64,000 nt of DNA from Escherichia coli (GTDB lineage Bacteria; Pseudomonadota; Gammaproteobacteria; Enterobacterales; Enterobacteriaceae). The position numbers and the translations under genes were made by a program. Location: assembly GCF_024298765.1 (NCBI RefSeq), contig NZ_CP101210.1; one strand, given 5' to 3'. Of this stretch, positions 30,441-52,399 are shown in pieces (the first letter of the stretch is position 1; each line of letters begins with the position of its first letter). Below the pieces are notes generated by a model, which was given only the letters and a program-made list of their open reading frames with translations, was not told the origin of the DNA and searched no databases.

Positions 30441-30524
30441 AATCGATATTCCTTTTTGCAGATAAATGAAAACGCCAGCCCTGTTCAGGCTGGCGTCAGT
30501 GGAATGAAGTCTGGTGAGTAAGAC

Positions 30525-30722
30525 TCACCGGTTCTGTTGCAGAAGCTGCAACTGGCGCAGGATACGGATATCCTCCCTGGCCTGTTCGATACAGGGCAAC
30601 AGTGCTGCCGAATCCGTTCTATCCTCATCGTTGTCAAAGATAATTCCCGATTCGCAGTCGATATTGTCCTGTAGCCACGCAATCAGAATATCCAGTGCGG
30701 TTTCCGTGGTTAATGATTTCAT
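30525..30722 (-). CDS. Small hypothetical protein (CP4-like island)
   Basis: 65 aa from MKSLTTETALDILIAWLQDNIDCESGIIFDNDEDRTDSAALLPCIEQ...; resembles small conserved ORFs near cbtA modules. Confidence 0.4.
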   Translation of the reverse strand: MKSLTTETALDILIAWLQDNIDCESGIIFDNDEDRTDSAALLPCIEQAREDIRILRQLQLLQQNR

Positions 30723-30733
30723 GTTGTTCCTGG

Positions 30734-31225
30734 TTACCAGTCGAAAGTGGGCAGGTCCGGCAGACATTCAGCGCTGGCATCCAGATGAATGAGACTGACG
30801 CCATAACGTCGGGTAAGTGTGACAACCAGACGACGGAACGTTTTTGACAGGCCCAGGCGCTTAAGCCGCAGAACCGGGTATGACCACGCATCGGTACGTA
30901 ACAGATATCCGCTACCTGTGAAATGAATCCATTCTGATTCGCCGGTGCCATTCGTCTGATGTGACAGCGAGTACAGCCAGGCGTTGTCCTTTGCCGTGAT
31001 ATGCGCGGTACTGCAGCGTATGCCGGTAAGGGCCGCCGCAGATGATGGCGTGCGCTCTGCTGATGTCCGGTCAGATTCATCAACAACACGAAGGGAGTAA
31101 CCGTTATCGCAGACCACGTTAATCAGTTCAGCGAGAGTAACACCATCGACGTCAACGACAATGCGCCCCATGTTCAGTGCCTGCACGTTAATGCTGTCGG
31201 CTTCCAGCGTCAGGGCCAGTTTCAT
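30734..31225 (-). CDS. Hypothetical protein downstream of cbtA (YeeW-like position)
   Basis: 163-aa ORF whose start overlaps the cbtA stop; no motif recognised. Confidence 0.4.
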   Translation of the reverse strand: MKLALTLEADSINVQALNMGRIVVDVDGVTLAELINVVCDNGYSLRVVDESDRTSAERTPSSAAALTGIRCSTAHITAKDNAWLYSLSHQTNGTGESEWIHFTGSGYLLRTDAWSYPVLRLKRLGLSKTFRRLVVTLTRRYGVSLIHLDASAECLPDLPTFDW

Positions 31226-31599
31226 TGTTTCGCCCCCGGATGTTTACCCAGGGTAATGTTATTTACCGTTCTGTAATTGTCGCGGGCCATCAGGCCGGTT
31301 GCCCGGCGGGCCCGGAGGATATCAATACTGTTTATTAACTGAGAACGGGTACAGGCGCTGAATCCTGGCTGGTCGGTACGTACCAGTGCGTATTTTTCAA
31401 CGAGAAAGTTCACCGCATCGCACAGTGAAATGCCTGCCTCAATATGCTGCTCAATCACACGTTCATCAGCGAACGGTGTGTCATTCAGTGTGAGGCCGTA
31501 ATGCTGGTCCAACAGTCGGGTGAGCAGTGTCTGCCAGATGGTGACGGGAGACGGGCAGCGCGATGCCTCCCGTACGTGTGTGTCAGGTAATGTTTTCAT
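31222..31599 (-). CDS. cbtA: CbtA/YeeV-family type IV toxin
   Basis: From MKTLPDTHV...; ...WQTLLTRLLDQHYGLTLNDTPFADERVIEQHIEAGISLCDAVNFLVEKYALVRTDQPGFSACTRSQLINSIDILRARRATGLM is near-identical to CbtA/YkfI/YpjF toxins as I recall them. Confidence 0.85.
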   Translation of the reverse strand: MKTLPDTHVREASRCPSPVTIWQTLLTRLLDQHYGLTLNDTPFADERVIEQHIEAGISLCDAVNFLVEKYALVRTDQPGFSACTRSQLINSIDILRARRATGLMARDNYRTVNNITLGKHPGAKQ

Positions 31600-31645
31600 C
31601 TTAAGTTCTCTGTAACTGGTAGTGCTAAAGGTGAGATATTCGGGG

Positions 31646-32020
31646 TTATGAGGTGGTTGCGGGTGCCAGTGTCGGATAAACAGCCATATAAACGTAACCA
31701 CAGCTGCCGAGGGTGTCGGCTTCGCAGGTCAGCCCTCTGGCATACAGCGTGACGGTATGCTGATGGCGGGGATTCAGTTCACCGCTGGTGAGCATGAGTT
31801 CCAGTTGTTTCATCAGCAGCGGAAAGGCCTGGTCCAGATGATACGCATCCGCGTCGCTAAACTGCCCCCTGATACCGGCGCGGTCGGCAAGGTAATGCAA
31901 CCGGTTACCCTCCTGCACCAGACGTGCCCCGAAACAGGGCGTCACGGTGCAGGGGAGCCCCCACCAGGGGCGGTCGTTGTTGTTGTCGGGATGCGTTGTC
32001 CCGGGGTGTGTGTCTGACAC
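31646..32020 (-). CDS. cbeA: CbeA/YeeU-family type IV antitoxin
   Basis: MSDTHPGTTHPDNNNDRPWWGLPCTVTPCFGARLVQEGNRLHYLADRAGIRGQFSDADAYHLDQAFPLLMKQLELMLTSGELNPRHQHTVTLYA... Confidence 0.85.
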   Translation of the reverse strand: MSDTHPGTTHPDNNNDRPWWGLPCTVTPCFGARLVQEGNRLHYLADRAGIRGQFSDADAYHLDQAFPLLMKQLELMLTSGELNPRHQHTVTLYARGLTCEADTLGSCGYVYMAVYPTLAPATTS

Positions 32021-32099
32021 GATAAAATCCTCACAGAAAATCGGTTAAGAATGCTCCGATGGTGGCGATAATTCGGCTCATCAGAATGCCCTTTCTGAT

Positions 32100-32321
32100 T
32101 CAGTTCAGGGTAACGCTCATCAGACGGACATACGGACCAAAACTGTCCTTACGGCGTTCAGCAAACACGGCCAGCACACCGGGAATATCCTGCACTTCAC
32201 GGCCGGTATACGTATCCGTGCTACCGTGCCAGCGGTATTTACCGGTACAGAACGGAAAAAGACGGGATGCAGGATGCTGTTGGTGAATACGCATGGCTTC
32301 ACCACGGGTGATGATTTTCAT
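32100..32321 (-). CDS. yeeT: YeeT-like protein (DUF987)
   Basis: 73 aa MKIITRGEAMRIHQQHPASRLFPFCTGKYRWHGS... Confidence 0.8.
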   Translation of the reverse strand: MKIITRGEAMRIHQQHPASRLFPFCTGKYRWHGSTDTYTGREVQDIPGVLAVFAERRKDSFGPYVRLMSVTLN

Positions 32322-32383
32322 AATGGGATACCTCTGAAGACAGAAGATAAAAGTGAAAACAGGTGTGATGTGGTTGTGACGGG

Positions 32384-32860
32384 TTAAAGCAGACCGTGTT
32401 CGGCAAAGGAGAATACCTGGTTGCCACCGACTATCAGATGGTCCGGCACCCGGATATCCACCAGGGCCAGCGCCTGTACCAGACGTTCAGTGATAAGCCG
32501 GTCTGCCTTACTGGGGGTGACTTCACCGGACGGGTGATTGTGCGCCAGCACCACGGCAGCGGCATTGTGGTACAGGGCACGTTTAATCACCTCCCGGGGA
32601 TGGACTTCTGTGCGGTTGATGGTGCCTGTGAAGAGGGTTTCACCCGCAATCAGCTGATTCTGGTTGTTCAGATACAGCACCCGGAACTCTTCCCGCTCCA
32701 GTCCTGCCATGTTCAGAATCAGCCATTCCCGTGCCGCATGCGTGGAGGTGAAGGCCACGCCGGGCTCATGAAGATGACGGTCCAGGGTTTTCAGGGCCCG
32801 CTGAATGAGGCTGCGCTCGCCGGGCGTCATCTCTCCGGGCAGAAAGGAAAGCTGTTGCAT
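32384..32860 (-). CDS. yeeS: RadC-like JAB-domain protein
   Basis: JAMM-like motif in VVLAHNHPSGEVTPSKADRLITERL; start placed at MQQLSFLPGE. Confidence 0.8.
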   Translation of the reverse strand: MQQLSFLPGEMTPGERSLIQRALKTLDRHLHEPGVAFTSTHAAREWLILNMAGLEREEFRVLYLNNQNQLIAGETLFTGTINRTEVHPREVIKRALYHNAAAVVLAHNHPSGEVTPSKADRLITERLVQALALVDIRVPDHLIVGGNQVFSFAEHGLL

Positions 32861-32875
32861 TGTGCTTCTCTCCAT

Positions 32876-33361
32876 TCAGTCGATGATGCGCATAATGGCG
32901 TTGCATTCCGGATGCTGCAGGGCGTAATCCCGCAACCGATAATAATGGACCGTCATGGCATAATTCTCTGTACGACAGGCGTGATGACTGTACGCCATCA
33001 GACAGGCGGCAATGCCGGCGGCTTCCGGGCTCATTTCAGCGCGGTTGCCGTTCATGGCATTGAACAGTACCCATGTTTCGTCATCATCGTCATCCGGTTC
33101 GGGTACCATAAATGCCCCACCGTTGTTCAGGGTGTACAGATTCCAGATACCACCGCAGTAGTCTTCGCAAAGACGGTCCATCCAGCCGAAGACACGGGGC
33201 TCCAGGGTCACCCACTGTGGAATGAGGCCAAAATGTTGCGGCCAGAAACTGATGCGCTGTTCATCAGGGACGGGAGTGGCAACCAGTTGAGACTGGTTAT
33301 TCCCTGGTGCAGTGGTTACGGAAACAGAAGGCGTGGTGGAGCTATGCGAAAAGGTTGTCAT
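32876..33361 (-). CDS. Antirestriction protein (ArdB/KlcA-like, YfjX family)
   Basis: 161 aa with acidic stretch PEPDDDDDETW and WVTLEPRVFGWMDRLCEDYCGGIWNLYTLNNGGAFMVP motif region recalled from YfjX/YafX proteins. Confidence 0.65.
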   Translation of the reverse strand: MTTFSHSSTTPSVSVTTAPGNNQSQLVATPVPDEQRISFWPQHFGLIPQWVTLEPRVFGWMDRLCEDYCGGIWNLYTLNNGGAFMVPEPDDDDDETWVLFNAMNGNRAEMSPEAAGIAACLMAYSHHACRTENYAMTVHYYRLRDYALQHPECNAIMRIID

Positions 33362-33452
33362 GAGATGATTCCTTATAAAAAGTAAATGAATGGAAGAATG
33401 CCCGGGGACTGGTACAGACGTGAGTCAGGGTTGCACTTTCAGGGAAACAGCA

Positions 33453-34271
33453 TCAGCGCATGCTCTCCAGCAGCGTTTCTGCCATCACCCACAATGCGCG
33501 ATTGAGCTTAATGTCCGTGTCGATGCTGTGAATGGCACGGGTGTGGATACGTTTTCCTTTAGCGCTGCGACCAGAAATCCCGCCTTTCAGCATATTTTCC
33601 TGGATGGTCTGATAAGCACTCCACAGGTCCTTACCGTAATCCTCCCGGCGTCGTGGCGTCAGAATGTCGGCGGTGGTGACGGGCTGATGTTCGTCACCAT
33701 AACGGTAAGTCAGTGCCGCCTGTGCCAGCGCCTGGCGTGCCGGTGGCGGCAGGACCAGCGACTGCATGGCATCACGCTTTTCCTCAATCCGGTCAAAAAC
33801 GCCCACCACTTCGTAAGCCCCTTCAATGACTCTGTCCACCACATTTCCCCGGTGCGGAACACGCACTTCCCCCAGAGACTGACCACAGACGCAGCCGTTC
33901 TGGCAGACGAACCTGAAGTAACCCGGCAGCATCTGGTAGCTGGAGGTACCGTCATGGGAGTTCAGCAGGATGATTTCAGGGACATGTTGTCCGTTTATCT
34001 CCCCGTCACGGCGCAGACGCAGCATGTGTTTGGTATACCCCCGGCGGCCCGGGTCACGTACGCGGGTCTGGCAGGCAAAGAAGGGCTGAAAGCCTTCCCG
34101 CTGCAGGCTTTCCAGCACGGTGATGGTGGGGATCCAGGTATAGTTCTCGCTTCTGGATGTGTGCTTATCTTCCCCGAATACGCTGGGGACGACCTGCATC
34201 AGTTCTTCGCGAGTTAAGGGGCGGTCACGGCGTATCTGGTTCGCATAACCAAAACGACTTGCTAATCGCAT
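33453..34271 (-). CDS. DUF932-family protein (YfjQ/YafZ-like)
   Basis: 272 aa; position and sequence typical of CP4-type islands. Confidence 0.65.
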   Translation of the reverse strand: MRLASRFGYANQIRRDRPLTREELMQVVPSVFGEDKHTSRSENYTWIPTITVLESLQREGFQPFFACQTRVRDPGRRGYTKHMLRLRRDGEINGQHVPEIILLNSHDGTSSYQMLPGYFRFVCQNGCVCGQSLGEVRVPHRGNVVDRVIEGAYEVVGVFDRIEEKRDAMQSLVLPPPARQALAQAALTYRYGDEHQPVTTADILTPRRREDYGKDLWSAYQTIQENMLKGGISGRSAKGKRIHTRAIHSIDTDIKLNRALWVMAETLLESMR

Positions 34272-34361
34272 GATTTGCTCCTTATGAATGAGTTAGCGAT
34301 ATAAATGAAAAAGCCGCGCCTCCCGGAGAAGACGCGGCCTGATGGATGAAATGAATGACGT

Positions 34362-34571
34362 TTATTGTCTGAGAAGCCCTTCACTGGCGAGCCACACATT
34401 AAGCTGTTTTCCGGCATCGGATTCAAAATTCCAGTACCGCCAGCGCAACTGACCTTCAGCATTACGGATAACCAGCCGGAAATGCGTTCCCTGGTCATCT
34501 TCAATAAGCACATTGCGGTAAGCTGTTGTGACGGCAACCGCCTGTTCGCGTGAGAAAGGGCCTTCGGGCAA
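34362..34571 (-). CDS. Small DUF905-like protein
   Basis: 69 aa [49 protein letters not shown]... Confidence 0.45.
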
Positions 34572-34600
34572 TTAAACAGGGTGACAGTCCGACATACCGG

Positions 34601-35278
34601 CTATTTTCCGATAAATTCAACGCTGGCACCGGTGGCATTACCGTCAGCACCAACCGTGACGGTCACTTTGTCGTACGCACGGTCTTCAGGATTGAACACT
34701 TCAAACTCAACCTTATTGCCTTTTACTTCGTAAGAGCCAAAATCAGCGGTTTCTGTTGTTTCCTCGTCATATTCCCGGGCGTATGCCAGCCGGGCAGCCT
34801 GCAGGACGGAATCTTTATTAATGGCGGGTGTCTGTTTCGGGGAAAAACCGGCAAGTGATGTGACAAATTTCGGACAGACCTTCAGCATATCACCGCGGGT
34901 GAATTCCATTCGTACACCAAATGCCTGTAAAACGGACACATCACGCTCTGCTATGGAGTGAACGGCTTTTTTGACCATTTCCGGCGCCTGTCCGATTTCC
35001 ACCTCAACAGCCCTGAATCCCGTCTGCTGATTACACATTTGTGATGTGGGGATCAGGTTACCGTTAATACTGATACGGCTGCCCAGGAGCGTCTGTACAC
35101 CATTCGGGCATCCCTGCATCAGGCCGGTAATACCAATCGTGCCATTTTTCAGCATTACCAGCGCCTGACCATCTTCCGTCATGGTCTGACACCAGCCGTT
35201 TTTGACAGCCCAGTTGCCGGCGGAGGCGGAGAATGATGCCACAGTGAACAGCAGGGGAAAAAGAGCTCTGGTATTCAT
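34601..35278 (-). CDS. Exported hypothetical protein (signal peptide)
   Basis: From MNTRALFPLLFTVASFSASAG...; cleavable-looking signal peptide; no functional motif recognised. Confidence 0.45.
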   Translation of the reverse strand: MNTRALFPLLFTVASFSASAGNWAVKNGWCQTMTEDGQALVMLKNGTIGITGLMQGCPNGVQTLLGSRISINGNLIPTSQMCNQQTGFRAVEVEIGQAPEMVKKAVHSIAERDVSVLQAFGVRMEFTRGDMLKVCPKFVTSLAGFSPKQTPAINKDSVLQAARLAYAREYDEETTETADFGSYEVKGNKVEFEVFNPEDRAYDKVTVTVGADGNATGASVEFIGK

Positions 35279-35425
35279 GACTGACCTCTGAAATGAACGT
35301 ACGGTGTTATTGATAATGATGGAAGGTATGCAGTGACTGTTCAGGGAATGACGTAGCCGTATATTTAGTTTTCTGTTCAACATATTGTCTCCATACCTGT
35401 CGGGACGGCTTTGGCAGGCCGGCGA

Positions 35426-36106
35426 TCACAGGTTAAAGGTGTTGATAAGTTTATGGATGAAAGAGAAATGTGGCAGGGCGGAGATAAAACGCTCTTCAGC
35501 GACCAGACTGTGGATGTGGCCTCTCCGTTCAAACCGTTCTGATGTCAGGCTGACTGATTTGATATCTGCCAGAGGAAAGACCTGCAGTTTTCCCTTCTGT
35601 AACGCGATCAGATACCAGCTACCGCTGTAATAAATGAGCCGGCAGGGCTCCAGTGACGGATACCATCGCTCAGTCATCAGAGAGATGTGGATACACTGTC
35701 TTATTGCCAGGATGAGTTGCGAGAAACACTCGGGGAACGTTGCAGTGATATCCGGCGCCGGTAGCCAGATAAGGCAGGGAGAGGGCTCCTGGTTGTCGGT
35801 AAGACAGGTTATCAGTCGTCCGTTCCGGAGCGGAAGTATCCGTGCGATCCCGGTATTCTGTATAAAAGAAAGCATTTCAGGGATCGCACCTGGGCTGCTC
35901 TGTCGTCTGAGGCTGTACCTGCCATTTCTGTACTCTAAATCCAGGTGAACCAGACGCTGATGAAAATCGCGCTGTAAAGTACGTTCTGTAACGCCAAATT
36001 CATCTGACAGTGTTTTTAGTGACAGAGATTCTCCGGCCATCAGTCGGCTGATAATGAGTGATAAGCGAACCGCCAGGCGATCATGCCGGGAACGATTATC
36101 AGACAT
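35426..36106 (-). CDS. HTH + WYL-domain transcriptional regulator (YfjR-like)
   Basis: MSDNRSRHDRLAVRLSLIISRLMAGESLSLKTLSDEFGVTERTLQRDF... N-terminal HTH, C-terminal ...GSWYLIAL... WYL-like segment. Confidence 0.7.
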   Translation of the reverse strand: MSDNRSRHDRLAVRLSLIISRLMAGESLSLKTLSDEFGVTERTLQRDFHQRLVHLDLEYRNGRYSLRRQSSPGAIPEMLSFIQNTGIARILPLRNGRLITCLTDNQEPSPCLIWLPAPDITATFPECFSQLILAIRQCIHISLMTERWYPSLEPCRLIYYSGSWYLIALQKGKLQVFPLADIKSVSLTSERFERRGHIHSLVAEERFISALPHFSFIHKLINTFNL

Positions 36107-36308
36107 AGATGTGCACTCCGTAAGAAAACATCTTTTATTTCATGATGTTATTATGCATCATGATGTTGAAAGGATGTGTCGCATCCGAATAATCAGAAAT
36201 AAAATGCAGCAGAAAAAATATTCCTTTAATTATCTGATTTTTAAGCAGGGTTTCATAAAAAGAAGAATGCTTGTTAATCCAGCGACACATCCTGTCGGCG
36301 TGAGTGTG

Positions 36309-37193
36309 TCAGAACAGACGATCCCACAGTGTGACCAGCAAGTGGATAATGCGGTCCCGGGCCTTACGCAGAAGCTGTAACATCCAGGCCGGAAAGCTGA
36401 ATTGGGCAACGGCAGCGTCAAAGCTTTTCCCGATGGCGTCACCAAAAGTTTGTTGTGCGTGTTTCCGGGCCTGTTCAGAGCGGTTTTCCCCCCGGATATG
36501 TGAATAAACTGCGCTGGTTGCCTGTGGTGGCAGTGCGTGGATCATCAGCGACACCAGTGCCGGAAGATTCCAGCCGACAGGTGCGGCAACGGAGAGTACC
36601 GGAAATGATGACGGGAACAGGGGTGCCACCCGGGCTGTTACTGTCGCCAGTGAGAGTTCCTGCTGACGGGACGGGCATTTTTCTGTGTCGTTCCATTCTT
36701 CAGCAGGAAACACGCGATCGGCATGGCTGAGAACAAACAGAAAACGCGAGGGATCTGCACCTTCATTCAGTAAAAACTGATGCATGGCAATATCAGCAGC
36801 ATACGCACGTTCATCAGCCCGCAGGATCCAGATAATCAGATCCAGTTCCGGCAGTAACTGACGGTAAAGCTCCCGGTATTCCTGATCATGCTGCGGTGTC
36901 TCACCAATGCCGGGCATATCGACCAGCGTCATTCTGCGTTCACCGAGCTGCAGGGTAAGACGATGAGCCTGGCGGGTGCAGCCGTTCAGGGGATGCGTGG
37001 CGCAGATACGGGACTGAAAAATGGCATTACACAGACTGCTTTTGCCGGTGCCGGATTTACCCATAATGCCAATTACGGGCTCGTAATGAATAACACCGTG
37101 GAGATGTTCAAGGATTTTCTGGCGAATTTCTTCAGGAAGAAACGTCAGATATGATTTTACTTGTGCAGAGAGGGAAGAATGGCTGAATGACAT
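36309..37193 (-). CDS. GTP-binding protein (YfjP/YkfA/YeeP family)
   Basis: G1 motif GIMGKSGTGKSS, G3-like DMPGIGE; 294 aa. Confidence 0.8.
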   Translation of the reverse strand: MSFSHSSLSAQVKSYLTFLPEEIRQKILEHLHGVIHYEPVIGIMGKSGTGKSSLCNAIFQSRICATHPLNGCTRQAHRLTLQLGERRMTLVDMPGIGETPQHDQEYRELYRQLLPELDLIIWILRADERAYAADIAMHQFLLNEGADPSRFLFVLSHADRVFPAEEWNDTEKCPSRQQELSLATVTARVAPLFPSSFPVLSVAAPVGWNLPALVSLMIHALPPQATSAVYSHIRGENRSEQARKHAQQTFGDAIGKSFDAAVAQFSFPAWMLQLLRKARDRIIHLLVTLWDRLF

Positions 37194-40013: not shown

Positions 40014-40745
40014 ATGAATCAACCAATACACAATGCTTACTGGTTATCCCGTTTTGACAGCCTTCTCGACAGTGCCCTGGCGCAGCACCGTGCCGTCTCG
40101 TTAATCCGGGTGGATTTACGTTTCCCTGAGTATATGCCTGTCACCATCATGGATCCCGATCCGGATTCAGCGGTGATTTCTCGTTTTTTTGCATCCCTGA
40201 AAGCCAAAATTCAGGCTTACCAGCGGAAAAAAAGATGTGCCAATCAGCGTGTGCATGCAACCAGCCTGGGTTATTTCTGGTGCCGGGAGTTCGGCAAGAT
40301 GTATGGCAGGAAACATTATCACGTGATATTACTGCTCAACAAAGATACCTGGTGCTCGCTCGGGGATTTCAGCGAACCGTCTTCGCTGGCGACGATGATC
40401 CAGGAGGCATGGTGCAGCGCCCTGCATCTTGAGCCCTGGCAGGGTAATGGACTGGTTCATTTTTCCAGGCGGACGCCTTTCCGTAAACCGACATCATCTG
40501 ATGCTCGCCCTTCTTCCGATGATACGCCTTTGTCGGGTGGATGTTCTGAAACCAGGAAGGTTTCAGACAAAAAGTCTGGTGAAGCCGCTGTTCTCTGGAT
40601 CAAGCGTGGTGATGTGGAAGCGATGCAGAAAGCCCGGAACAGAGCCAGTTATCTCGTGAAAAATGAAACGAAGTTGCATGATGGTTCAGGTCAACGTAAT
40701 TATGGTTGCAGTCGTGGGCCGGGGCGTCTACTGGATGGCAGGTGA
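40014..40745 (+). CDS. YfjJ/YagK-like (inovirus Gp2-family) protein
   Basis: 243 aa MNQPIHNAYWLSRFDSLLDSALAQHRAVSLIRVDLRFPEY...; resembles prophage-island YagK/YfjJ proteins. Confidence 0.6.
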   Translation: MNQPIHNAYWLSRFDSLLDSALAQHRAVSLIRVDLRFPEYMPVTIMDPDPDSAVISRFFASLKAKIQAYQRKKRCANQRVHATSLGYFWCREFGKMYGRKHYHVILLLNKDTWCSLGDFSEPSSLATMIQEAWCSALHLEPWQGNGLVHFSRRTPFRKPTSSDARPSSDDTPLSGGCSETRKVSDKKSGEAAVLWIKRGDVEAMQKARNRASYLVKNETKLHDGSGQRNYGCSRGPGRLLDGR

Positions 40746-41111
40746 ACCCTGTAAAACAGCATCTGGTGCCTGAGTGTATACCACGGTAAGGGCGTTGGAT
40801 GATGTCTTTAAATAATACAGTGCATTTTCATTCGTTTCCGCACTTTATGTTTTCACTAATCATAATAGGAAAAGTGACCACTAGCCTTGATAAATTGTAT
40901 TCACGGCCATTTCAGGAGTGGATTGTTGTGAATAACACGATGAGATCAGGGGGCTGAAGATTTTTTCTTTATCCGTTCAGACTTCAGTAACTGGAAAAAG
41001 CTTTCTGTAACCGCATTATAGTGGCAGTTACCGCGATGGTCGTGTTATTTCAGGAACGACTGACGCTCATGGCTTGTACACTAAAGAGTGAACTTAGGTA
41101 ATGACTCCAAC

Positions 41112-41615
41112 TTATTGATAGTGTTTTATGTTCAGATAATGCCCGATGACTTTGTCATGCAGCTCCACCGATTTTGAGAACGACAGCGACTTCCGTCCCA
41201 GCCGTGCCAGGTGCTGCCTCAGATTCAGGTTATGCCGCTCAATTCGCTGCGTATATCGCTTGCTGATTACGTGCAGCTTTCCCTTCAGGCGGGATTCATA
41301 CAGCGGCCAGCCATCCGTCATCCATATCACCACGTCAAAGGGTGACAGCAGGCTCATAAGACGCCCCAGCGTCGCCATAGTGCGTTCACCGAATACGTGC
41401 GCAACAACCGTCTTCCGGAGACTGTCATACGCGTAAAACAGCCAGCGCTGGCGCGATTTAGCCCCGACATAGCCCCACTGTTCGTCCATTTCCTCGCAGA
41501 CGATGACGTCACTGCCCGGCTGTATGCGCGAGGTTACCGACTGCGGCCTGAGTTTTTTAAGTGACGTAAAATCGTGTTGAGGCCAACGCCCATAATGCGG
41601 GCAGTTGCCCGGCAT
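41112..41615 (-). CDS. insB: IS1 InsB (expressed as InsAB by frameshift)
   Basis: ...[64 protein letters not shown]... Confidence 0.9.
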
Positions 41616-41809
41616 CCGACGCCATTCATGGCCATATCAATGATTTTCTGGTGCGTACCGGGTTGAGAGGCGGTGTAAGTGAACTGTAGTTGCCATGTTT
41701 TACGGCAATGAGAGCAGAGATAGCGCTGATGTCCGGCAGTGCTTTTGCCGTTACGCACCACGCCTTCAGGAGCGGAGCAGGAAGGACATCTGATGGAAAT
41801 GGAAGCCAC
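41534..41809 (-). CDS. insA: IS1 InsA
   Basis: [43 protein letters not shown]... Confidence 0.9.
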
Positions 41810-42072
41810 GCAAGCACCTTAAAATCACCATCATACACTAAATCAGTAAGTTGGCACCATTACCTGACCAAGCTTCCTCTATTGCGGCACCTGATTGCAT
41901 CAATATCGAAAGTGATAAGATCCTCTCACTAGCAGGGCATGACAAGTGTAACTGCTGATTTGTTAGCCTGTTTTAAGTTTTTTAAGATCAATTATTTCTC
42001 ATTTTTTGACTTTATTGCTAGCCGTGAAAATGCAAAGCCTATAGGATACAAAAATTACAATTTGTAGGTTTT

Positions 42073-42579
42073 GTGAGTCATATGAAGGCAACCAATATAG
42101 ACCCTCAACTGCTTGAAAAAGCCACGAGTATCTTTGCTGAGTTGGGCTTACCTATTGAGCAGGCTATTAACGTCTTTTTAGCTAAATCCGTTCAAGCCAA
42201 AGGTTTTCCGTTTTCTGTTGCTCTTGAAAATGAAGTAGAGACACGGGAAGTTGCACAAACGCAACACAATATCAGCAATGCAGAGATAACCGAAGCTATC
42301 CAAGACTTGGTTGAACATGCTCTACCACTGAGTGAAATAGAAAACCTCACGCAGCTAACCTATTGTCGCAACATTTTTGGGTTGTCATTCCCCGTGCTCA
42401 AACTGGCTAAATCATCACGGCCAGAAGACATTCGCAGTGCAGCCAAAGATGCCAAAGAGCGAAACCGCTACTCCACCACTAAAGTGGCCCAGCGAGATGA
42501 AAAAACCTATGTTATTTGCACCCAATGGACCGACAGACATCGTTCTGCATTTTGCCGTTGGCAAGCCATCTTTAGCTAG
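42073..42579 (+). CDS. RelB/DinJ-like antitoxin-domain protein with C-terminal extension
   Basis: N-terminus MKATNIDPQLLEKATSIFAELGLPIEQAINVFLAKSVQAKGFPF resembles DinJ/RelB RHH antitoxins; ~90-aa C-terminal extension unrecognised; no adjacent toxin ORF. Confidence 0.5.
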   Translation: MSHMKATNIDPQLLEKATSIFAELGLPIEQAINVFLAKSVQAKGFPFSVALENEVETREVAQTQHNISNAEITEAIQDLVEHALPLSEIENLTQLTYCRNIFGLSFPVLKLAKSSRPEDIRSAAKDAKERNRYSTTKVAQRDEKTYVICTQWTDRHRSAFCRWQAIFS

Positions 42580-42645
42580 AACGCAAAATAATAACCAAAC
42601 AATACACTGATTTTTTAACGATTTAACTTCATTTAGGTAGTATCA

Positions 42646-44625
42646 ATGAACTTACAAGACAAAGAACAAAGCGCCAAACTCTCCAGTGCTATTTGGCGTA
42701 TGGCAGATGATTTATGGGGTGATTTCAAACACACCGATTTTGCGCGGATTATCCTGCCATTTTTGCTACTGCGTCGTATTGAATGCGTGTTAGAACCCAC
42801 CCGTGAGGAAGTTCGTAAGTTCTATCTGGCCGAAAAACAATCCGGCATAGACCTTGGTTTAGTGTTGCCAGAAATTGCGGGATTCGCCTTTTACAACACC
42901 AGTGAATATAGCCTAGAAACCTTAGGCGCGTCAGACACCGGCGACAACCTAGAACACTACATCAGCCAGTTCAGCAAAAACGTTCGTACCATCTTTGATG
43001 AGTTTAAATTTGGTCAAACCATAGAAGATCTGGAAAAAGCCAAGTTGCTGTATCGCATGGTAAACCATTTTGCCAACCTCGACTTGCATCCTGATGTAGT
43101 GTCTGACCGCGTATTATCAGATGCTTATGAAGAGCTGATTCTAAAGTTCGCCAGTTCGGTTAATGAAAAGGCCGGGGAATTTATGACCCCGCGTGATGCC
43201 GTGCGTCTTGCCACCAAACTGGTGCTGGCGGCGGATGAAGATATCTTTAGTGAAAAGGGTGTGATCCGCACCATCTATGACCCAACCTGTGGCACGGGCG
43301 GTTTCCTTTCCGATGCCATTAGCCAAATTGAAGAAATGGGCAGCAGCGCTAAAGTCGTGCCTTTTGGTCAAGAGCTCGACCCCGCGACCCATGCCATGGC
43401 GCTGACCAATATGATGATCCGCGGTTTTGATGCCAATAACATCAAGCAAGGCAACACCTTATCAGACGATCAGTTACGTGCCGACAAGTTTCACTACGGC
43501 CTTGCCAACCCGCCATTTGGCATTAAGTGGGAAAAAGCCAAGAAAGAAGTAGAACGTGAGCACAAACAGCTCAAATACGCCGGACGCTTTGGGCCAGGCC
43601 TGCCGAGTATTTCTGATGGTTCAATGCTGTTTTTACTGCACTTGGTATCAAAAATGGAAACGCCGGAAAATGGTGGTGGCCGAGTGGGTATAGTCCTTTC
43701 TGGCTCGCCACTGTTTAATGGCGATGCAGGCTCAGGCCCATCAGAAATCCGCCGTTGGCTGCTAGAACAAGACTTAGTCGAAGCGATTGTTGCCCTGCCA
43801 ACCGATATGTTCTTCAACACCGGCATTGGCACCTACATCTGGATTTTGACTAACCATAAAGAGCCAAGACGCAAGAATCAGGTGCAACTGATTAACTTGG
43901 CAGATATTTGGACTCCCATGCGTAAATCGCAAGGCGATAAGCGCAAGTACCTGAGTGATGAACAGATTGACGATATTGTCCGTGCGTACGATGGCTTTGA
44001 AGCCAGTGACAACTGTAAGATCTTCCAGACTACTGATTTTGCCTACCGTAAAGTCACCATTCAGCGTCCACTGCGTGCCAAACTAGATATTACCGCTGCG
44101 GGCATTGCTGCATTTGTGCAGCAAGATACGTTTAAAAAACTCAAACCAGAGCAACAAGCGGCATGGGTACAATACCTCACCGATAACCTTGGCCTTCAGC
44201 CTTATGAATGGGCACGTTTGGCGGTTAAGAAGAATAACAATAAGGGTGACTTTGGTAAGTGCTCAAAAGCACTGGCTACGGCCTTAACTGCGCACTTTGT
44301 AAAAATTGATCCGCAATTTGAGCCTGCACTGGATGAAAAAGGCCAAGTGATCGCCGACCCTAAACTCAAAGACACCGAAAGCATTCCTTTTGACCGCGAC
44401 GTTGAAGATTACTTCGCACAAGAGGTGCTGCCACATGTACCGGATGCCTTTATTGATCACTCAGTGCGTGATGAAAAAGACGGCGAAGTGGGCATTGTCG
44501 GTTATGAAATTAACTTTAACCGCTATTTCTACCAATACGTGCCACCACGCGAGTTGAGTGTGATTGATCGTGAGCTAAAAGCATGTGAAGCGCGCATTCA
44601 GGCTCTGCTGAATGAGGTGGCGTAA
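42646..44625 (+). CDS. hsdM: Type I restriction-modification system, DNA methyltransferase subunit
   Basis: AdoMet motif DPTCGTGGFL and catalytic NPPF (GLANPPFGIKWEK); 659 aa. Confidence 0.9.
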   Translation: MNLQDKEQSAKLSSAIWRMADDLWGDFKHTDFARIILPFLLLRRIECVLEPTREEVRKFYLAEKQSGIDLGLVLPEIAGFAFYNTSEYSLETLGASDTGDNLEHYISQFSKNVRTIFDEFKFGQTIEDLEKAKLLYRMVNHFANLDLHPDVVSDRVLSDAYEELILKFASSVNEKAGEFMTPRDAVRLATKLVLAADEDIFSEKGVIRTIYDPTCGTGGFLSDAISQIEEMGSSAKVVPFGQELDPATHAMALTNMMIRGFDANNIKQGNTLSDDQLRADKFHYGLANPPFGIKWEKAKKEVEREHKQLKYAGRFGPGLPSISDGSMLFLLHLVSKMETPENGGGRVGIVLSGSPLFNGDAGSGPSEIRRWLLEQDLVEAIVALPTDMFFNTGIGTYIWILTNHKEPRRKNQVQLINLADIWTPMRKSQGDKRKYLSDEQIDDIVRAYDGFEASDNCKIFQTTDFAYRKVTIQRPLRAKLDITAAGIAAFVQQDTFKKLKPEQQAAWVQYLTDNLGLQPYEWARLAVKKNNNKGDFGKCSKALATALTAHFVKIDPQFEPALDEKGQVIADPKLKDTESIPFDRDVEDYFAQEVLPHVPDAFIDHSVRDEKDGEVGIVGYEINFNRYFYQYVPPRELSVIDRELKACEARIQALLNEVA

Positions 44626-45911
44626 TGAATGCTGGCAACATAGTAGATGCTTTCGTATCTGACTCGAAATGGAACTCAGTACCAGCTAAACGTTTATTTA
44701 CGAGTAGCAAAGAAATCAATCAAGGAATGAAAGAATCTAATCGTCTTGCACTAACAATGAAAGGTGTCATAAACCGCTCGTTAGACGATTTACAAGGACT
44801 TCAATCTTCTGATTACTCTGTTTATCAGATTTTTGAAAAAGATGACTTAGTTTTTAAGCTCATAGATCTTGAAAATATAAAGACTAGCCGAGTGGGGATT
44901 GTGCATGAACGAGGAATAATGAGCCCTGCATACATCCGTGTTTCAGCGAGTTCAAATAGCATCTACCCAAGGTTCTATTACTGGTACTTTTTTGCTCTAT
45001 ACCTAACCAATATTTATAACAAACTGGGTGGAGGAGTTCGTCAGAACCTAACAGCTGGTGATCTTTTAGAAATACCTGTTCCACTGATTGATATTTCATT
45101 ACAGAAGCAGGTTAGCACATTCCTTGATCGCGAAACCCAGCGCATCGACAGTCTGATCGAGGAAAAGCAGACCTTTATTAAGCTGCTCAAAGAAAAACGC
45201 CAAGCACTGATCAGCCATGTGGTCACAAAGGGGCTCTATCCCAATGTGGAGATGCAGGACTCTGGCATCGAGTGGATTGGGCAAGTGCCGAAGCATTGGG
45301 AAGTCAAAAAGATAAAGCATATTTGCTCCAACTTTATGTATGGAACCTCTCAAGACTGTAACCAGTCTGATGTTGGCTATCCTGTTCTCAGGATACCAAA
45401 CATCAAGAGTACCAATGTTGATTTTGAAGATCTCAAATATGCAAATATCAGTGATGTTGATGCTTTAACTTATCTTTTATCAAGAGGCGACATTTTAGTC
45501 ATCAGAACTAACGGTAACCCTAATCTGGTCGGCCAAAGCGCGCTTTTTGATTCAAATGGGCAGTATTTATTTGCGTCGTACCTAATAAAGTTAACACCAA
45601 AGCAAGGAGTGGATACTAGCTTCTTAGTGGAAGCGATGAACTCACTATCTGTTCGTCAAGCATTAACATTTCAGTCAAGAACATCGGTAGGTAACTACAA
45701 CCTGAGCATTCCTTCACTAGCTAATACAAGTATTGCTATCCCACCAATTGATGAGCAAAAGACAATAACGAATTACTTGAGTGCAGCAACGATAAACATT
45801 GATTTACTGATTCAAGAGACTGATAAATCGATTGATCTTCTAAAAGAACACCGCACATCGCTGATCAACGCGGCTGTCACAGGAAAAATAGACGTCAGGG
45901 AGGCGGTGTAA
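44625..45911 (+). CDS. hsdS: Type I restriction-modification system, specificity subunit
   Basis: 428 aa with two target-recognition domains separated by conserved repeats (LIEEKQTFIKLLKEKRQALISHVVTKGL / LLIQETDKSIDLLKEHRTSLINAAVTGKIDV); start overlaps hsdM stop (TAATG). Confidence 0.85.
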   Translation: MNAGNIVDAFVSDSKWNSVPAKRLFTSSKEINQGMKESNRLALTMKGVINRSLDDLQGLQSSDYSVYQIFEKDDLVFKLIDLENIKTSRVGIVHERGIMSPAYIRVSASSNSIYPRFYYWYFFALYLTNIYNKLGGGVRQNLTAGDLLEIPVPLIDISLQKQVSTFLDRETQRIDSLIEEKQTFIKLLKEKRQALISHVVTKGLYPNVEMQDSGIEWIGQVPKHWEVKKIKHICSNFMYGTSQDCNQSDVGYPVLRIPNIKSTNVDFEDLKYANISDVDALTYLLSRGDILVIRTNGNPNLVGQSALFDSNGQYLFASYLIKLTPKQGVDTSFLVEAMNSLSVRQALTFQSRTSVGNYNLSIPSLANTSIAIPPIDEQKTITNYLSAATINIDLLIQETDKSIDLLKEHRTSLINAAVTGKIDVREAV

Positions 45912-48900
45912 TGGCTGCACATCATGAAGTGCATTTTGAACAATATATTACCGAGCAGTTGGTGAACAATGGCTGGAAAGAAGGCCATTCCTGCCACTAT
46001 GACCAGCAACGCGCCCTTTACCCGCAAGATGTCATGGATTGGGTAAAGGCCACCCAGCCAGATGCCTGGCACAAACTGAATAAACTGCATGGTGTGAATG
46101 CCGAGCAGGTGCTGTTGGAGCGTTTGGAAAAAGCCCTCTCTTCCCACAAAGCTGGCAGTAAAACAGGTGGCACCATTAATGTGCTGCGTAAAGGCTTTAC
46201 CATTGCAGGTTGCGGCACGATTGCCATGGGCCAACGCAAACCCGAAGATGCGCGCAATGAAGAGCGTATAGCCCGTTATGAGCACAACATTTTGCGCGTG
46301 GTGCGCCAACTGAAATATTGCCCGACTCGCGAGTGGGAAATTGACTTGGTGTTCTTTATCAACGGTCTACCCGTTGCCACCGCCGAGCTAAAAACCGATT
46401 TTACCCAGTCGCTAGAATCGGCGATTGCGCAGTACAAAGAGGATCGTCTGCCCGTTGACCCAAAAACCAAGCGTAAAGAGCCGCTGTTAACCTTTAAACG
46501 CGGTGCAGTGGTACATTTTGCCATGTCTGATACAGAAATCGCCATGGCGACCAAACTGGCGGGAGAAAATACCTATTTTCTGCCCTTCAATAAAGGCCAT
46601 GATGGTTCTACCTCTGATTTGCCCGTACACATCAACTTGCCGGGTGAAGATGGAGAGTATCCGGTCAGCTATTTTTGGCAAGAAATTGCCCAAAAAGATA
46701 ATTGGCTACGCATTTTCTACAGCTTTGTGTATGTCGAAACCAAAGAGGTTGCCGATAGCAATGGCAAGGTTGAGCGTAAGGAAACACAGATTTTTCCGCG
46801 TTATCATCAGTTAGCCGCAGTCAACAAGATGATTGATGATGCCCGCCAGAACGGCGCAGGCATGCAGTATCTTTGTGAGCACAGCGCCGGTTCGGGAAAA
46901 ACCTCTACCATAGCCTGGACGGCCCATGATTTGATTCGTTTACGCAGCACCGATGGTAAAGCGGTCTTTAAATCAGTGATCATTGTGACCGACCGCACCG
47001 TGCTGGATTCGCAGTTGCAAGATGCGGTGCAACAGCTGGATCATCAATATGGGGTGATTAAGGCGATTGATCGCGAAAAGAGCAGCGAGTCGAAATCAAA
47101 ACAGCTGACTGAAGCGCTATTGACTGGCACGCCGATCATTGTAGTGACGATTCAAACCTTCCCATATGCGTTAGAAGCGATTCTGACCAATCAATCTTTG
47201 GCACAAAGTAACTTTGCGGTGATCATCGATGAAGCACACACCTCGCAAACAGGCTCTACAGCCAAAGGGTTACGCGCAGCGCTTACTCTAAACCTTAGCC
47301 CTCAAGAGTTGGAGCAAATGAGCATTGAGGACATTCTTACTAAGGTGCAAGAAGCGCGCGCCATGCCCAAGAACGTTTCGCACTTTGCTTTTACGGCAAC
47401 ACCCAAGCACAGCACCAAGATGTTGTTTGGCCGCCCGAAAGACCCTAACCAACCAGTGTCAGATGACAATCTTCCTGAATCGTTCCACCTCTACACCCAA
47501 CGTCAGGCCATTGATGAGGGTTTTATTCTTGATGTGCTGGAGAATTACACCCACTACGATACAGCCTACAAAATTGGTGAGAACAATCTGGATGAGAAGC
47601 GCGTAGACAGCAAACAAGCTCGCCGCGCGTTGGCGCGCTGGATGTCACTGCACCCAACCACGGTCAGCCAAAAAGTCGAATTTATTATTAAGCACTTCAA
47701 GGCCAATATCGCTCACCTACTGGAAGGTGAAGCCAAAGCCATGGTGGTCACATCGGGCAGGCCACAGGCGGTGAAATACAAGCTTGCTTTTGATAAATAC
47801 ATTAAAAAGCATGGTATTGAAGGTATCCAAGCCTTGGTTGCCTTCTCGGGCAAAGTCCCCGGCAAAGATTTGGGTGATGAAGACAGCCAAGACCCGCTAG
47901 AAATTGATTTCGATAAAGAGTACACCGAGTACAACTTAAACCCAGACACGCACGGGGCTGACCTGCGCCATGAGTTTGAGAAAACCGAATATCGCGTCAT
48001 GTTAGTCGCCAACAAGTTCCAAACGGGCTTTAATCAACCAAAACTGGTTGCCATGTATTTGGATAAGAAAATATCCGATGTAGAAGCGGTGCAAACGCTG
48101 TCTCGCCTAAACCGCACCTATCCAGGCAAAGACACAACCTTCGTGATTGATTTTGTTAACGATCCACAAACCATTCTCAATGCGTTCAAAAAGTACGACA
48201 AAGGCGCGCAGCTTAATGAAGTGCAAGATGTGAACGTCATCTATGACATCAAAGATATTTTGGATGAACAGAACATATACAACCATCAAGATTTAGAGTT
48301 GTTTAAGCAAGCGCGTGGTAAATCGATTCTCGGCCAATCACCTGACAAAAAGCCACACGCGCACAAGAAACTGCTAGCTGCCACACAACGCCCTACCGAT
48401 GTGTTCAACGTTAAGCTCAAAGAGCTGGTTGATGCTGCAAACCATTGGGATCAGCAATACAACAAAGCGCACCTTGCGGGTGATGAAAAAGCGGCGAACT
48501 ACGCAGAATCTCAGCGCAGTGATTTCACCAAGCAGCGCGAAGCACTAATGCGTTTTAAGTCAGATTTAGCTCGATTTGTGAAGCACTATAGCTATATGGC
48601 GCAATTGATTGAGTTTGGTGATCCTGAACTGGAAAACTTTGCCGCGTTTGCTCATTTGCTATCACGTCGATTGAAAGGGGTAACACCAGAAAACATCGAT
48701 CTCAGTGCACTGGTACTAGAAAAATTCAAAATCAAATACGACAAAGAGCCGCTTCCAGAAGCGTTTAATCAGGTACTTGAACCTATCCGCCCCAACTATA
48801 ACGACCCTGCGGATCGTGAACAGGCATTTCTTGCCGATATCATTCGCCGCCTAAACGAACTGTTTGGCGATGTCGGCGACGAACCCGGTCGCCGAAACTT

Positions 48901-49147
48901 TGCCAACGGTACTATTACGCGTGTCACCCAAAATCCAATTGTGGTTGAGCAGATAGAAAAGCACGACAAGTCGATTGCCCTCAAAGGCGACTTGCCGCAA
49001 GCGGTGAAGCAAGCCGTTGTGCAGGCTCTGCTGAAAGAAGGTGATATAGCCCGAACGCTACTCAAAGACCCACAAGTTATGGCAAGTTATGTTGAGTTGA
49101 TTTTTGACATGATGAAGCAAGGTGCAGAACAGGCGGCGGTGAAATAA
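45911..49147 (+). CDS. hsdR: Type I restriction-modification system, restriction/helicase subunit
   Basis: 1078 aa; Walker A SAGSGKTST, DEAH box (IIDEAHTSQ); start overlaps hsdS stop (TAATG). Confidence 0.9.
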   Translation: MAAHHEVHFEQYITEQLVNNGWKEGHSCHYDQQRALYPQDVMDWVKATQPDAWHKLNKLHGVNAEQVLLERLEKALSSHKAGSKTGGTINVLRKGFTIAGCGTIAMGQRKPEDARNEERIARYEHNILRVVRQLKYCPTREWEIDLVFFINGLPVATAELKTDFTQSLESAIAQYKEDRLPVDPKTKRKEPLLTFKRGAVVHFAMSDTEIAMATKLAGENTYFLPFNKGHDGSTSDLPVHINLPGEDGEYPVSYFWQEIAQKDNWLRIFYSFVYVETKEVADSNGKVERKETQIFPRYHQLAAVNKMIDDARQNGAGMQYLCEHSAGSGKTSTIAWTAHDLIRLRSTDGKAVFKSVIIVTDRTVLDSQLQDAVQQLDHQYGVIKAIDREKSSESKSKQLTEALLTGTPIIVVTIQTFPYALEAILTNQSLAQSNFAVIIDEAHTSQTGSTAKGLRAALTLNLSPQELEQMSIEDILTKVQEARAMPKNVSHFAFTATPKHSTKMLFGRPKDPNQPVSDDNLPESFHLYTQRQAIDEGFILDVLENYTHYDTAYKIGENNLDEKRVDSKQARRALARWMSLHPTTVSQKVEFIIKHFKANIAHLLEGEAKAMVVTSGRPQAVKYKLAFDKYIKKHGIEGIQALVAFSGKVPGKDLGDEDSQDPLEIDFDKEYTEYNLNPDTHGADLRHEFEKTEYRVMLVANKFQTGFNQPKLVAMYLDKKISDVEAVQTLSRLNRTYPGKDTTFVIDFVNDPQTILNAFKKYDKGAQLNEVQDVNVIYDIKDILDEQNIYNHQDLELFKQARGKSILGQSPDKKPHAHKKLLAATQRPTDVFNVKLKELVDAANHWDQQYNKAHLAGDEKAANYAESQRSDFTKQREALMRFKSDLARFVKHYSYMAQLIEFGDPELENFAAFAHLLSRRLKGVTPENIDLSALVLEKFKIKYDKEPLPEAFNQVLEPIRPNYNDPADREQAFLADIIRRLNELFGDVGDEPGRRNFANGTITRVTQNPIVVEQIEKHDKSIALKGDLPQAVKQAVVQALLKEGDIARTLLKDPQVMASYVELIFDMMKQGAEQAAVK

Positions 49148-50543: not shown

Positions 50544-50578
50544 TAGCCCATTATCAGTAACATATGAAGGTTGATTCA

Positions 50579-51613: not shown

Positions 51614-51670
51614 CCGATATAGTACAGCCCTGATCTCTAATGAGTTGAGGGCTGTGTTGTAAGATCATAA

Positions 51671-52057: not shown

Positions 52058-52399
52058 GTCTGCAATTTTTTGTGCTATGTAGAAGTAGCGGAGCTGTTCT
52101 ATTTCGGTTGATTTATGGGTGTAGTGTAGATATTGCTCTGATATGGTTAAGGAAAAAGCATTGCGTCGTCTTGATTAACATTTGTGCTATTGACAATAAA
52201 GGTTTCCCAAATATTAATTTGTGTTTCTAGTCCTTTAAATGATTTTGAGAAGGCTTCTATGTACTCAGATTGCGGTTGATTTCCCCCATTTAGTGCTGCA
52301 CCAAATGTAGCTATCTATTGTTCTAAAAATGAATGATTTTTGGTCATTACATAATCCTCTGTGTGGTTGATACTGCGTATTTTCATGAAAGGAGATCAC

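What the first reader, a model, noticed from the sequence alone, without database searches (positions are those of the whole stretch)
41097..41864. IS1 copy without matching target-site duplications at a module junction
The 9 bp flanking IS1 differ (left gtgaactta, right tgaccaagc). Absence of a direct duplication suggests the IS1 mediated a deletion or recombination joining the CP4-like module to the RM module rather than a simple insertion.
Basis: seen in the sequence. Interest (0 to 1): 0.35.

Follow-up and report, generated by a model that had tools for sequence, protein, structure and literature searches.

The report
Recombinant IS1 joining two island modules
This IS1 copy has no target-site duplication because it is a hybrid of two different IS1 copies that recombined with each other, fusing a CP4-like island module to a restriction-modification module; this is a well-documented but ordinary kind of event.

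Summary
A complete 768-bp IS1 lies at 41097-41864, and its flanks share no direct repeat.

- **Left junction.** It is the left half of an ordinary IS1A insertion. Seven complete E. coli genomes have IS1A at exactly this base with an 8-bp duplication, TGAACTTA, followed by an ATP-dependent nuclease gene. Fourteen genomes have the empty site with TGAACTTA present once.
- **Right junction.** The junction IS1|TGACCAAGC...DinJ-hsdMSR is present in 75 of the 76 genomes that carry this restriction-modification (RM) module. Those genomes have at least five different left neighbours.
- **The element itself.** It is a clean mosaic. Positions 1-516 are IS1A-type (43 of 43 informative sites). Positions 522-768 match the divergent IS1F-like copy that bounds the RM module in SMS-3-5 (22 of 22 sites). 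There is a single switch.

So two IS1 copies underwent homologous crossing-over. Five complete genomes carry the same hybrid junction, and none holds the nuclease flank, so there is no reciprocal junction. This favours a deletion, or replacement by incoming DNA, over an inversion.

The hybrid still has intact insA, the frameshift site and an open InsAB' frame.

This mechanism is already known, so interest is low.

The parts
41097..41864 (-). Hybrid IS1 element, 768 bp. The InsAB' coding region is 41112-41809 on the minus strand.
41097..41612 (-). IS1A-type part of the hybrid (element positions 1-516 in window orientation). It carries the IRR end, insB' and the 3' part of insA. It has 0 differences from the IS1A copy of EC15 and B1.
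   Evidence: 43 of 43 informative sites are A-type.
41613..41617 (.). Exchange interval in the window and in FY10 (element positions 517-521). In Z226-7, STE15, CT282 and UID2309220015 the switch lies at 477-503, which is window 41573-41599.
41618..41864 (-). IS1F-like part of the hybrid (element positions 522-768). It carries the IRL end and the 5' part of insA. It has 0 differences from the IS1 that bounds the RM module in SMS-3-5.
   Evidence: 22 of 22 informative sites are F-type; the outermost sites 761 and 765 appear to stay F-type in all 75 genomes (inferred from a best identity of 99.5% to an A-type probe).
41552..41558 (-). A6C programmed -1 frameshift motif (AAAAAAC on the minus strand).
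41089..41096 (.). TGAACTTA, the left copy of the 8-bp target duplication made by the parental IS1A insertion. Its right copy, and the nuclease gene that followed it, are missing here.
40014..40745 (+). YagK/YfjJ ('inovirus Gp2 family') gene, the last gene of the CP4-like side. The 351 bp after it (40746-41096) are the intergenic DNA that IS1A inserted into.
29574..37193 (-). CP4-like module (DUF4942, DUF957, DUF5983, CbtA/CbeA, DUF987, RadC, antirestriction, DUF932, DUF905, WYL, GTPase). It abuts the chromosomal gene yghD. Coordinates are approximate.
41865..41883 (.). 19 bp of unknown origin between the IS1 end and the resolvase remnant.
41884..41932 (+). Last 16 codons plus the stop of a serine resolvase gene. 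The gene is intact in strain 1585m1 and cut off here.
42082..42579 (+). RelB/DinJ-like gene, the first gene of the RM module.
42646..49147 (+). Type I restriction-modification genes: hsdM 42646-44625, hsdS 44625-45911, hsdR 45911-49147.

Best explanation
The element is a recombinant IS1 made by homologous crossing-over (RecA-type, inferred) between two IS1 copies that are 91.5% identical. Parent 1 was an IS1A that had transposed normally into the intergenic DNA downstream of the YagK/YfjJ gene of a CP4-like island. It duplicated TGAACTTA and sat upstream of an ATP-dependent nuclease gene. Parent 2 was a divergent IS1F-like copy that already formed the left boundary of a DinJ-hsdMSR-rhuM-mobI module, where it truncates a resolvase gene. 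The exchange took place between element positions 477 and 521. The product kept the left flank and left two-thirds of parent 1, and the right third and right flank of parent 2. Each flank therefore carries half of a different target site, and no duplication is visible. The DNA that lay to the right of parent 1 (the nuclease gene and beyond) and to the left of parent 2 is lost. The most likely route is a deletion between directly repeated copies in one island, or equivalently replacement of the tRNA-proximal part of the island by incoming DNA with one crossover inside IS1. Shown here: both parental junctions, the empty site, the mosaic, and the absence of a reciprocal junction. Inferred: RecA dependence, and deletion as opposed to replacement. 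The event is old relative to the window genome, because the same hybrid and about 25 kb around it occur at 100% identity in islands at selC (FY10) and leuX (Z226-7).
For: Empty site ...AAAGAG TGAACTTA CACAGATG... leading to the nuclease gene in ST-131 and WS4437A-1. In all, 14 genomes have the empty site. A simple IS1A insertion at the same base with TGAACTTA on both sides is read directly in EC15 and B1. Seven records hold both of its junctions at 100% identity. The right junction is present in 75 of 76 RM-bearing genomes. Their left neighbours include an integrase fragment, cybC, a DNA-binding gene and others. Mosaic: of 65 sites that differ between the EC15 IS1A and the SMS-3-5 IS1, the window copy is A-type at the first 43 and F-type at the last 22, with no exception and no private change. 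The chance of one clean switch is 2/C(65,22), about 1.6e-17. Flank haplotypes agree with this: window 39.5-41.1 kb is 99.8-100% identical to EC15 in every 500-bp window, and the 6.4 kb to the right of the IS1 is essentially identical to SMS-3-5. None of the five complete genomes with the hybrid junction holds the nuclease flank, and none of the seven IS1A-nuclease records holds the RM module. Recombination between IS copies is an established cause of missing duplications (PMC11708052).
Against: No genome in the collection holds both parental junctions, so the substrate of the event was not observed. IS1 copies at this boundary also show gene conversion without flank exchange. Strain 2D has an internal A-type tract, and CM2 and PK8275 share both flanks but switch at different points. 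The mosaic alone would therefore not prove a crossover; the flank evidence is needed as well. The window's own switch interval, 517-521, is only 5 bp of shared identity, which is short for a homologous exchange. It probably reflects mismatch correction or a later conversion patch next to the 27-bp interval used in Z226-7. The SMS-3-5 copy is a stand-in for parent 2, and it has no target duplication either.
Confidence: 0.9

Rival explanations
1. Transposase-mediated adjacent deletion. A single IS1 stayed in place and deleted neighbouring DNA up to a new target, joining the two modules without a second IS1.
For: Adjacent deletions are a frequent cause of IS copies without duplications (PMC11708052). 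One junction, the left one, is indeed the junction of a known simple insertion.
Against: An adjacent deletion leaves a sequence-uniform IS and creates one new, lineage-specific junction. Here the IS is a one-switch A/F mosaic. Both junctions also exist independently elsewhere: the left in 7 records with the nuclease gene, the right in 70 other genomes with unrelated left flanks.
Confidence: 0.04
2. Inversion between two inverted IS1 copies in an SMS-3-5-like island, where the RM module has the opposite orientation. The reciprocal junction was lost later.
For: Relative to the tRNA-proximal genes, the RM segment is inverted between SMS-3-5 on one hand and Z226-7, FY10 and the window on the other. 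In that orientation an IS1A downstream of the YagK/YfjJ gene would be inverted relative to the IS1F-like copy. The same hybrid would result.
Against: The expected reciprocal junction (integrase fragment - IS1 - TGAACTTA - nuclease) is absent from all five complete hybrid-bearing genomes, and the nuclease flank is absent from them altogether. The gene order int-ept'-nanX-nanY-ythA in Z226-7 and FY10 is, from my knowledge of the K-12 KpLE2 region, the ancestral order, so no inversion is needed. This route needs at least one extra deletion.
Confidence: 0.05
3. The RM module arrived as an IS1-flanked composite transposon inserted at TGAACTTA. The solo IS1A of EC15 would then be what is left after the cargo was lost.
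For: The IS1-RM junction is found in many contexts, which suggests mobility.
Against: There is only one IS1 in the window. No genome has an IS1 joining the far end of the RM module to the TGAACTTA-nuclease flank: all seven IS1-nuclease junctions have the YagK/YfjJ gene 768 bp away. A pure F-type IS1 sits at the RM boundary in SMS-3-5. No TGAACTTA follows the module.
Confidence: 0.01

Closest known systems
Recombination between dispersed IS copies producing deletions or inversions, as catalogued in the E. coli long-term evolution experiment and reviewed in PMC11708052
   Same: Two copies of one IS act as portable homology. The surviving copy carries the outer flank of each parent and therefore has mismatched target halves and no duplication.
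   Different: Here the parents were only 91.5% identical (IS1A versus an IS1F-like variant). The product is therefore visibly chimeric and the exchange point can be placed within 45 bp. The event is natural and old, and the product has since spread to islands at three chromosomal sites.
IS-mediated adjacent deletion (one-ended transposition products)
   Same: It also removes a target duplication and joins the IS to previously distant DNA.
   Different: It needs only one IS and gives a sequence-uniform element with one new junction. Both predictions were tested here and failed.
Tracing of mismatched target duplications around IS26 in resistance plasmids (PMC4471558; title and abstract seen)
   Same: The same logic applies: pairing half-sites across IS copies reconstructs rearrangements.
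   Different: In that work IS26 acts by replicative transposition and cointegrate formation. Here the sequence mosaic inside the IS points to homologous exchange.
IS1 isoforms of E. coli K-12 (IS1A/B/C/D/E/F); from my own knowledge, IS1F is the divergent one, about 10% different
   Same: The two parental types correspond to PGAP's labels 'IS1A family' and 'IS1F family' for copies at these junctions.
   Different: This copy is neither type but a chimera of both. PGAP labels it only 'IS1 family transposase'.

Membership tests
IS1 family insertion sequence | About 768 bp with imperfect terminal inverted repeats of about 23 bp starting GGTAATG | tested here: met
   768 bp. The two ends match at 19 of the first 28 positions, counted from the aligned ends printed. 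The element is 95-99.9% identical to IS1 copies in about 9,000 E. coli records.
IS1 family insertion sequence | insA and insB' joined by a -1 frameshift at A6C, giving InsAB' with a zinc ribbon, an HTH and an IS1 DDE domain | tested here: met
   insA is 91 aa, A6C lies at element position 307, and the fusion frame is open for 232 aa. Pfam PF03811, PF12759 and PF03400 all score well above their cut-offs.
IS1 family insertion sequence | Direct target duplication of 8-9 bp | tested here: not met
   The flanks share no repeat. This is explained: the parental IS1A copy at the same left junction has the 8-bp duplication TGAACTTA.
Hybrid IS formed by homologous IS x IS crossing-over | Each flank is found separately next to an IS copy of the matching sequence type | tested here: met
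   Left flank plus pure A-type IS1 in EC15 and B1. Right flank plus pure F-type IS1 in SMS-3-5.
Hybrid IS formed by homologous IS x IS crossing-over | Polymorphisms inside the IS switch once from the type of the left parent to the type of the right parent | tested here: met
   43 A-type sites followed by 22 F-type sites, with no exception.
Hybrid IS formed by homologous IS x IS crossing-over | Fate of the intervening DNA: lost (deletion), or kept with a reciprocal hybrid IS (inversion or cointegrate) | tested here: inconclusive
   There is no nuclease flank and no reciprocal junction in the five complete genomes with the hybrid, which favours deletion or replacement. No genome holds both parents. 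The window's own genome cannot be searched.
Transposase-mediated adjacent deletion | Single, sequence-uniform IS with one ancestral junction and one new, lineage-specific junction | tested here: not met
   The IS is a mosaic, and both junctions exist independently in other genomes.
IS1 composite transposon | A second IS1 at the other end of the cargo, with one target duplication outside both copies | tested here: not met
   There is one IS1 in 64 kb. The far side of the module is bounded by IS3-family fragments and then ythA-nanY-nanX.

The most novel reading that the evidence does not exclude
The IS1 at the edge of this type I RM module may be a recurrent recombination handle rather than the relic of one accident. 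Its outermost end appears to stay F-type in all 75 genomes (inferred), while the rest of the element and everything to its left have been exchanged repeatedly. There are at least five left contexts and at least five different switch points. The defence cassette would thus be passed between genomic islands and chromosomal sites by IS1 homology instead of by its own, now truncated, resolvase or integrase machinery. In addition, the two hybrid types with identical flanks differ only at five clustered sites at the exchange point. They could be the two segregants of a single unrepaired heteroduplex, preserved in natural isolates.
Probability: 0.3. Interest if true: 0.3.

Novelty: already known. Interest (0 to 1): 0.15.

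Why it matters
It matters mainly as a tidy worked example. A missing target duplication can be resolved into its two parental insertions, an empty site and an exchange interval using only public genomes. It also shows how a restriction-modification cassette and a CP4-like module were fused. An ATP-dependent nuclease gene that normally follows the YagK/YfjJ gene was lost in the process. It cautions annotators that 'IS1 family transposase' copies can be chimeras of isoforms, and that IS1 copies at island junctions mark recombination scars rather than insertion events. No new mechanism or system is implied.

Tried and rejected
- **Original target of the F-type IS1.** I looked for TGACCAAGC present once, or duplicated on a left flank. 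It was not found. Of the 76 E. coli genomes with the module, 75 have IS1 at that base. The exception, 1585m1, diverges 19 bp before it.
- **Wider searches for an uninterrupted right flank.** A 40-mer scan of GTDB representative genomes gave 0 hits. The plasmid collection gave no match to the right flank. A 34-mer scan of metagenomes gave 3 contigs, all with the same IS1 end attached.
- **Left flanks of the IS1-RM junction.** I read 14 of them. None pairs with the right flank.
- **A genome with both parental junctions.** None exists in the collection. The full list of 76 RM-bearing genomes does not overlap the 7 IS1A-nuclease records.
- **An empty site for the left junction of the SMS-3-5 IS1.** An exact 30-mer search in FY10 and Z226-7 found nothing.
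- **Possible large chromosomal rearrangement.** The window joins the glc-sslE-gsp-yghD backbone to nanXY, so I considered this. I rejected it as the simplest reading. The same segment forms a normally oriented island at selC in FY10 and at leuX in Z226-7. The window's order also fits a normally oriented island at the tRNA site next to yghD.
- **Literature.** Searches for described IS1A/IS1F hybrids found nothing specific.

Full report
**1. The observation.**
Window 41097-41864 is a complete IS1 of 768 bp, with GGTAATG... termini and the transposase on the minus strand. It is the only IS1 in the window.

It encodes InsA (91 aa). It has the A6C frameshift motif at 41552-41558 on the minus strand. 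The InsAB' frame is open for 232 aa and carries the three IS1 Pfam domains.

The bases outside it are ...AAAGAGTGAACTTA on the left and TGACCAAGCTTCC... on the right. The two 15-bp flanks share no word of 4 bp or more.

**2. Surroundings.**
- Window 1-29 kb is chromosomal backbone: glcC, glcDEF, glcB, glcA, sslE, pppA, gsp and yghD.
- From about 29.6 to 37.2 kb lies a CP4-like module running from DUF4942 to the GTPase. It is followed by a hypothetical gene and a YagK/YfjJ ('inovirus Gp2 family') gene at 40014-40745.
- To the right of the IS1 come, in order:
  - 19 bp of unknown origin;
  - the last 16 codons of a serine resolvase gene;
  - a RelB/DinJ-like gene;
  - hsdM, hsdS and hsdR;
  - two hypothetical genes;
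  - rhuM and mobI(A/C);
  - IS3-family debris containing a group II intron;
  - ythA, nanY and nanX;
  - a phosphoethanolamine transferase fragment.

**3. The left junction is half of an ordinary insertion.**
I searched 5,426 complete E. coli genomes with the left junction (400 bp of flank plus 200 bp of IS1). Twelve records have an IS1 at exactly this base.

In seven of them (EC15, EC7, two records of strain 167, B1, MMC-J-0085 and UID2309220009) the IS1 is followed by TGAACTTACACAGATG... and, about 240 bp on, an ATP-dependent nuclease gene. Read directly, EC15 and B1 have ...GAG TGAACTTA [IS1] TGAACTTA CACAG.... This is a simple transposition with an 8-bp duplication.

Fourteen further genomes, including ST-131 and WS4437A-1, have the empty site with TGAACTTA once and the same nuclease gene downstream.

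The other five records (Z226-7, FY10, STE15, CT282 and UID2309220015) have the RM module on the right, as the window does.

**4. The right junction is older and promiscuous.**
The RM module's left edge occurs in 76 genomes. In 75 of them an IS1 abuts it at exactly the same base.

What lies to the left of that IS1 varies:
- the YagK/YfjJ gene (5 genomes);
- an integrase fragment (SMS-3-5, S30, 2D);
- cybC (CM2, PK8275);
- a DNA-binding gene (201609);
- yet another context (MB98).

None of these left flanks repeats TGACCAAGC.

The one genome without IS1, 1585m1, has an intact serine resolvase gene there. Homology to the window starts 19 bp inside the window's flank.

No uninterrupted copy of the window's right flank was found in GTDB representatives, plasmids or metagenomes, where all three hits carry the IS1 end.

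**5. The element is a chimera.**
The IS1A of EC15 and the IS1 that bounds the RM module in SMS-3-5 differ at 65 of 768 positions, which is 91.5% identity. PGAP labels the copy at this junction 'IS1F family' in MB98.

The window copy is identical to EC15 at the first 43 informative sites (positions 19-516). It is identical to SMS-3-5 at the last 22 (positions 522-765). It has no private change. One clean switch among 65 sites has a chance probability of about 1.6e-17.

The A-type part adjoins the A-type parent's flank, and the F-type part adjoins the F-type parent's flank. This is what a single homologous crossover predicts.

The flank haplotypes agree. Window 39.5-41.1 kb is 99.8-100% identical to EC15 in every 500-bp window. 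The 6.4 kb to the right of the IS1 is essentially identical to SMS-3-5.

FY10 shares the window's switch at 517-521. Z226-7, STE15, CT282 and UID2309220015 switch at 477-503. The two types differ only at five clustered sites, 504-516.

**6. What kind of rearrangement.**
None of the five complete genomes with the hybrid holds the nuclease flank anywhere. All seven IS1-nuclease junctions have the YagK/YfjJ gene on the other side. No reciprocal junction therefore exists in the collection.

None of the seven IS1A-nuclease records holds the RM module, so the substrate with both parents was not observed.

The simplest reading is one of two equivalent routes:
- a deletion between two directly oriented IS1 copies within one island;
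- replacement of the tRNA-proximal part of the island by incoming DNA, with one crossover inside IS1.

An inversion followed by loss is possible, because the RM segment is inverted in SMS-3-5 relative to Z226-7 and FY10. It needs extra steps.

Adjacent deletion and a composite transposon are contradicted by three things: the mosaic, the independent existence of both junctions, and the single IS1 in the window.

**7. Caveats.**
IS1 copies at this boundary also undergo gene conversion. Strain 2D has an internal A-type tract between F-type ends. CM2 and PK8275 share both flanks but switch at different points. The mosaic is therefore supporting evidence, and the flank comparisons carry the main argument.

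The 5-bp switch interval in the window is short for a homologous exchange. It more likely reflects mismatch correction, or a later patch beside the 27-bp interval seen in Z226-7.

RecA dependence is inferred from established knowledge, not tested.

**8. Age and spread.**
Window 36-61 kb is 100% identical to Z226-7 and FY10 in nearly every 500-bp window (never below 99.0%). The island sits at leuX in Z226-7 and at selC in FY10. In the window it abuts yghD.

Window 30.3-35.5 kb is instead 100% identical in most 500-bp windows to the yghD-side island of strain 104. A second recombination breakpoint therefore lies inside the CP4-like module at about 35-36 kb.

The hybrid IS1 was thus inherited, or imported, as part of a larger block.

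**9. Comparison with what is known.**
Missing target duplications are conventionally attributed to recombination between IS copies, to adjacent deletion, or to decay. Recombination between IS copies accounts for many large rearrangements in evolving E. coli (PMC11708052).

This case is a textbook example of the first cause. It is unusually legible because the two parents were divergent isoforms.

**10. Verdict.**
The mechanism is already known. Interest is 0.15.

Noticed in passing
window ~35000-36000: There is a second recombination breakpoint inside the CP4-like module. To its left (30.3-35.5 kb) the window is 100% identical in most 500-bp windows to the yghD-side island of strain 104. To its right (36-61 kb) it is 100% identical in nearly every window to Z226-7 and FY10.
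   Followed up: partly
window ~36000-61100; L016/L023 (FY10); L001/L022 (Z226-7): The same ~25-kb block (GTPase ... IS1 ... RM ... nanYX) lies in an island at selC in FY10 and at leuX in Z226-7. In the window it is next to yghD, with glc-sslE-gsp backbone at 1-29 kb. One island block therefore occupies three chromosomal sites.
   Followed up: partly
window 41865-41883: These 19 bp (tgaccaagcttcctctatt) lie between the IS1 end and the start of homology to the resolvase gene of strain 1585m1. No uninterrupted copy was found anywhere, so the original target of the F-type IS1 is unknown.
   Followed up: yes
window 41884-52100; L004 (strain 1585m1): The RM module (resolvase remnant, DinJ-like gene, hsdMSR, two hypothetical genes, rhuM, mobI(A/C)) looks like a fragment of a mobilisable island. 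In 1585m1 the resolvase-DinJ-hsdMSR part sits behind an intact serine resolvase, in an island beside tnaCAB. The module has no match in the plasmid collection.
   Followed up: partly
L007, L008, L009, L017-L020 (IS1 copies at the RM boundary in other genomes): At least five different left neighbours and at least five different A/F switch points were seen among 14 genomes. They include an internal conversion tract in strain 2D, and two genomes (CM2 and PK8275) that share both flanks but switch at different points. The outermost sites 761 and 765 appear to stay F-type in all 75 genomes, inferred.
   Followed up: partly
L008 (strain 201609): The IS1-RM segment is inverted relative to nanX-nanY-ythA when compared with the window. 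Its IS1 has the Z226-7-type mosaic except for the leftmost ~73 bp, which suggests a further IS1-associated inversion after the hybrid formed.
   Followed up: no
window 55550-57073 (-): A group II intron reverse transcriptase/maturase (ltrA) is inserted within an IS3-family pseudogene between the RM module and ythA.
   Followed up: no
window 42082-42579 (+): The RelB/DinJ-like gene upstream of hsdM encodes 165 aa. Only residues 5-67 match the RelB family, and no adjacent toxin gene is annotated.
   Followed up: no
L002 4634-6424 (ST-131) and L005 6410-8200 (EC15): The gene lost at this junction encodes a 596-aa ATP-dependent nuclease with an N-terminal AAA_15/AAA_23 ATPase domain. It normally follows the YagK/YfjJ gene.
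   Followed up: partly
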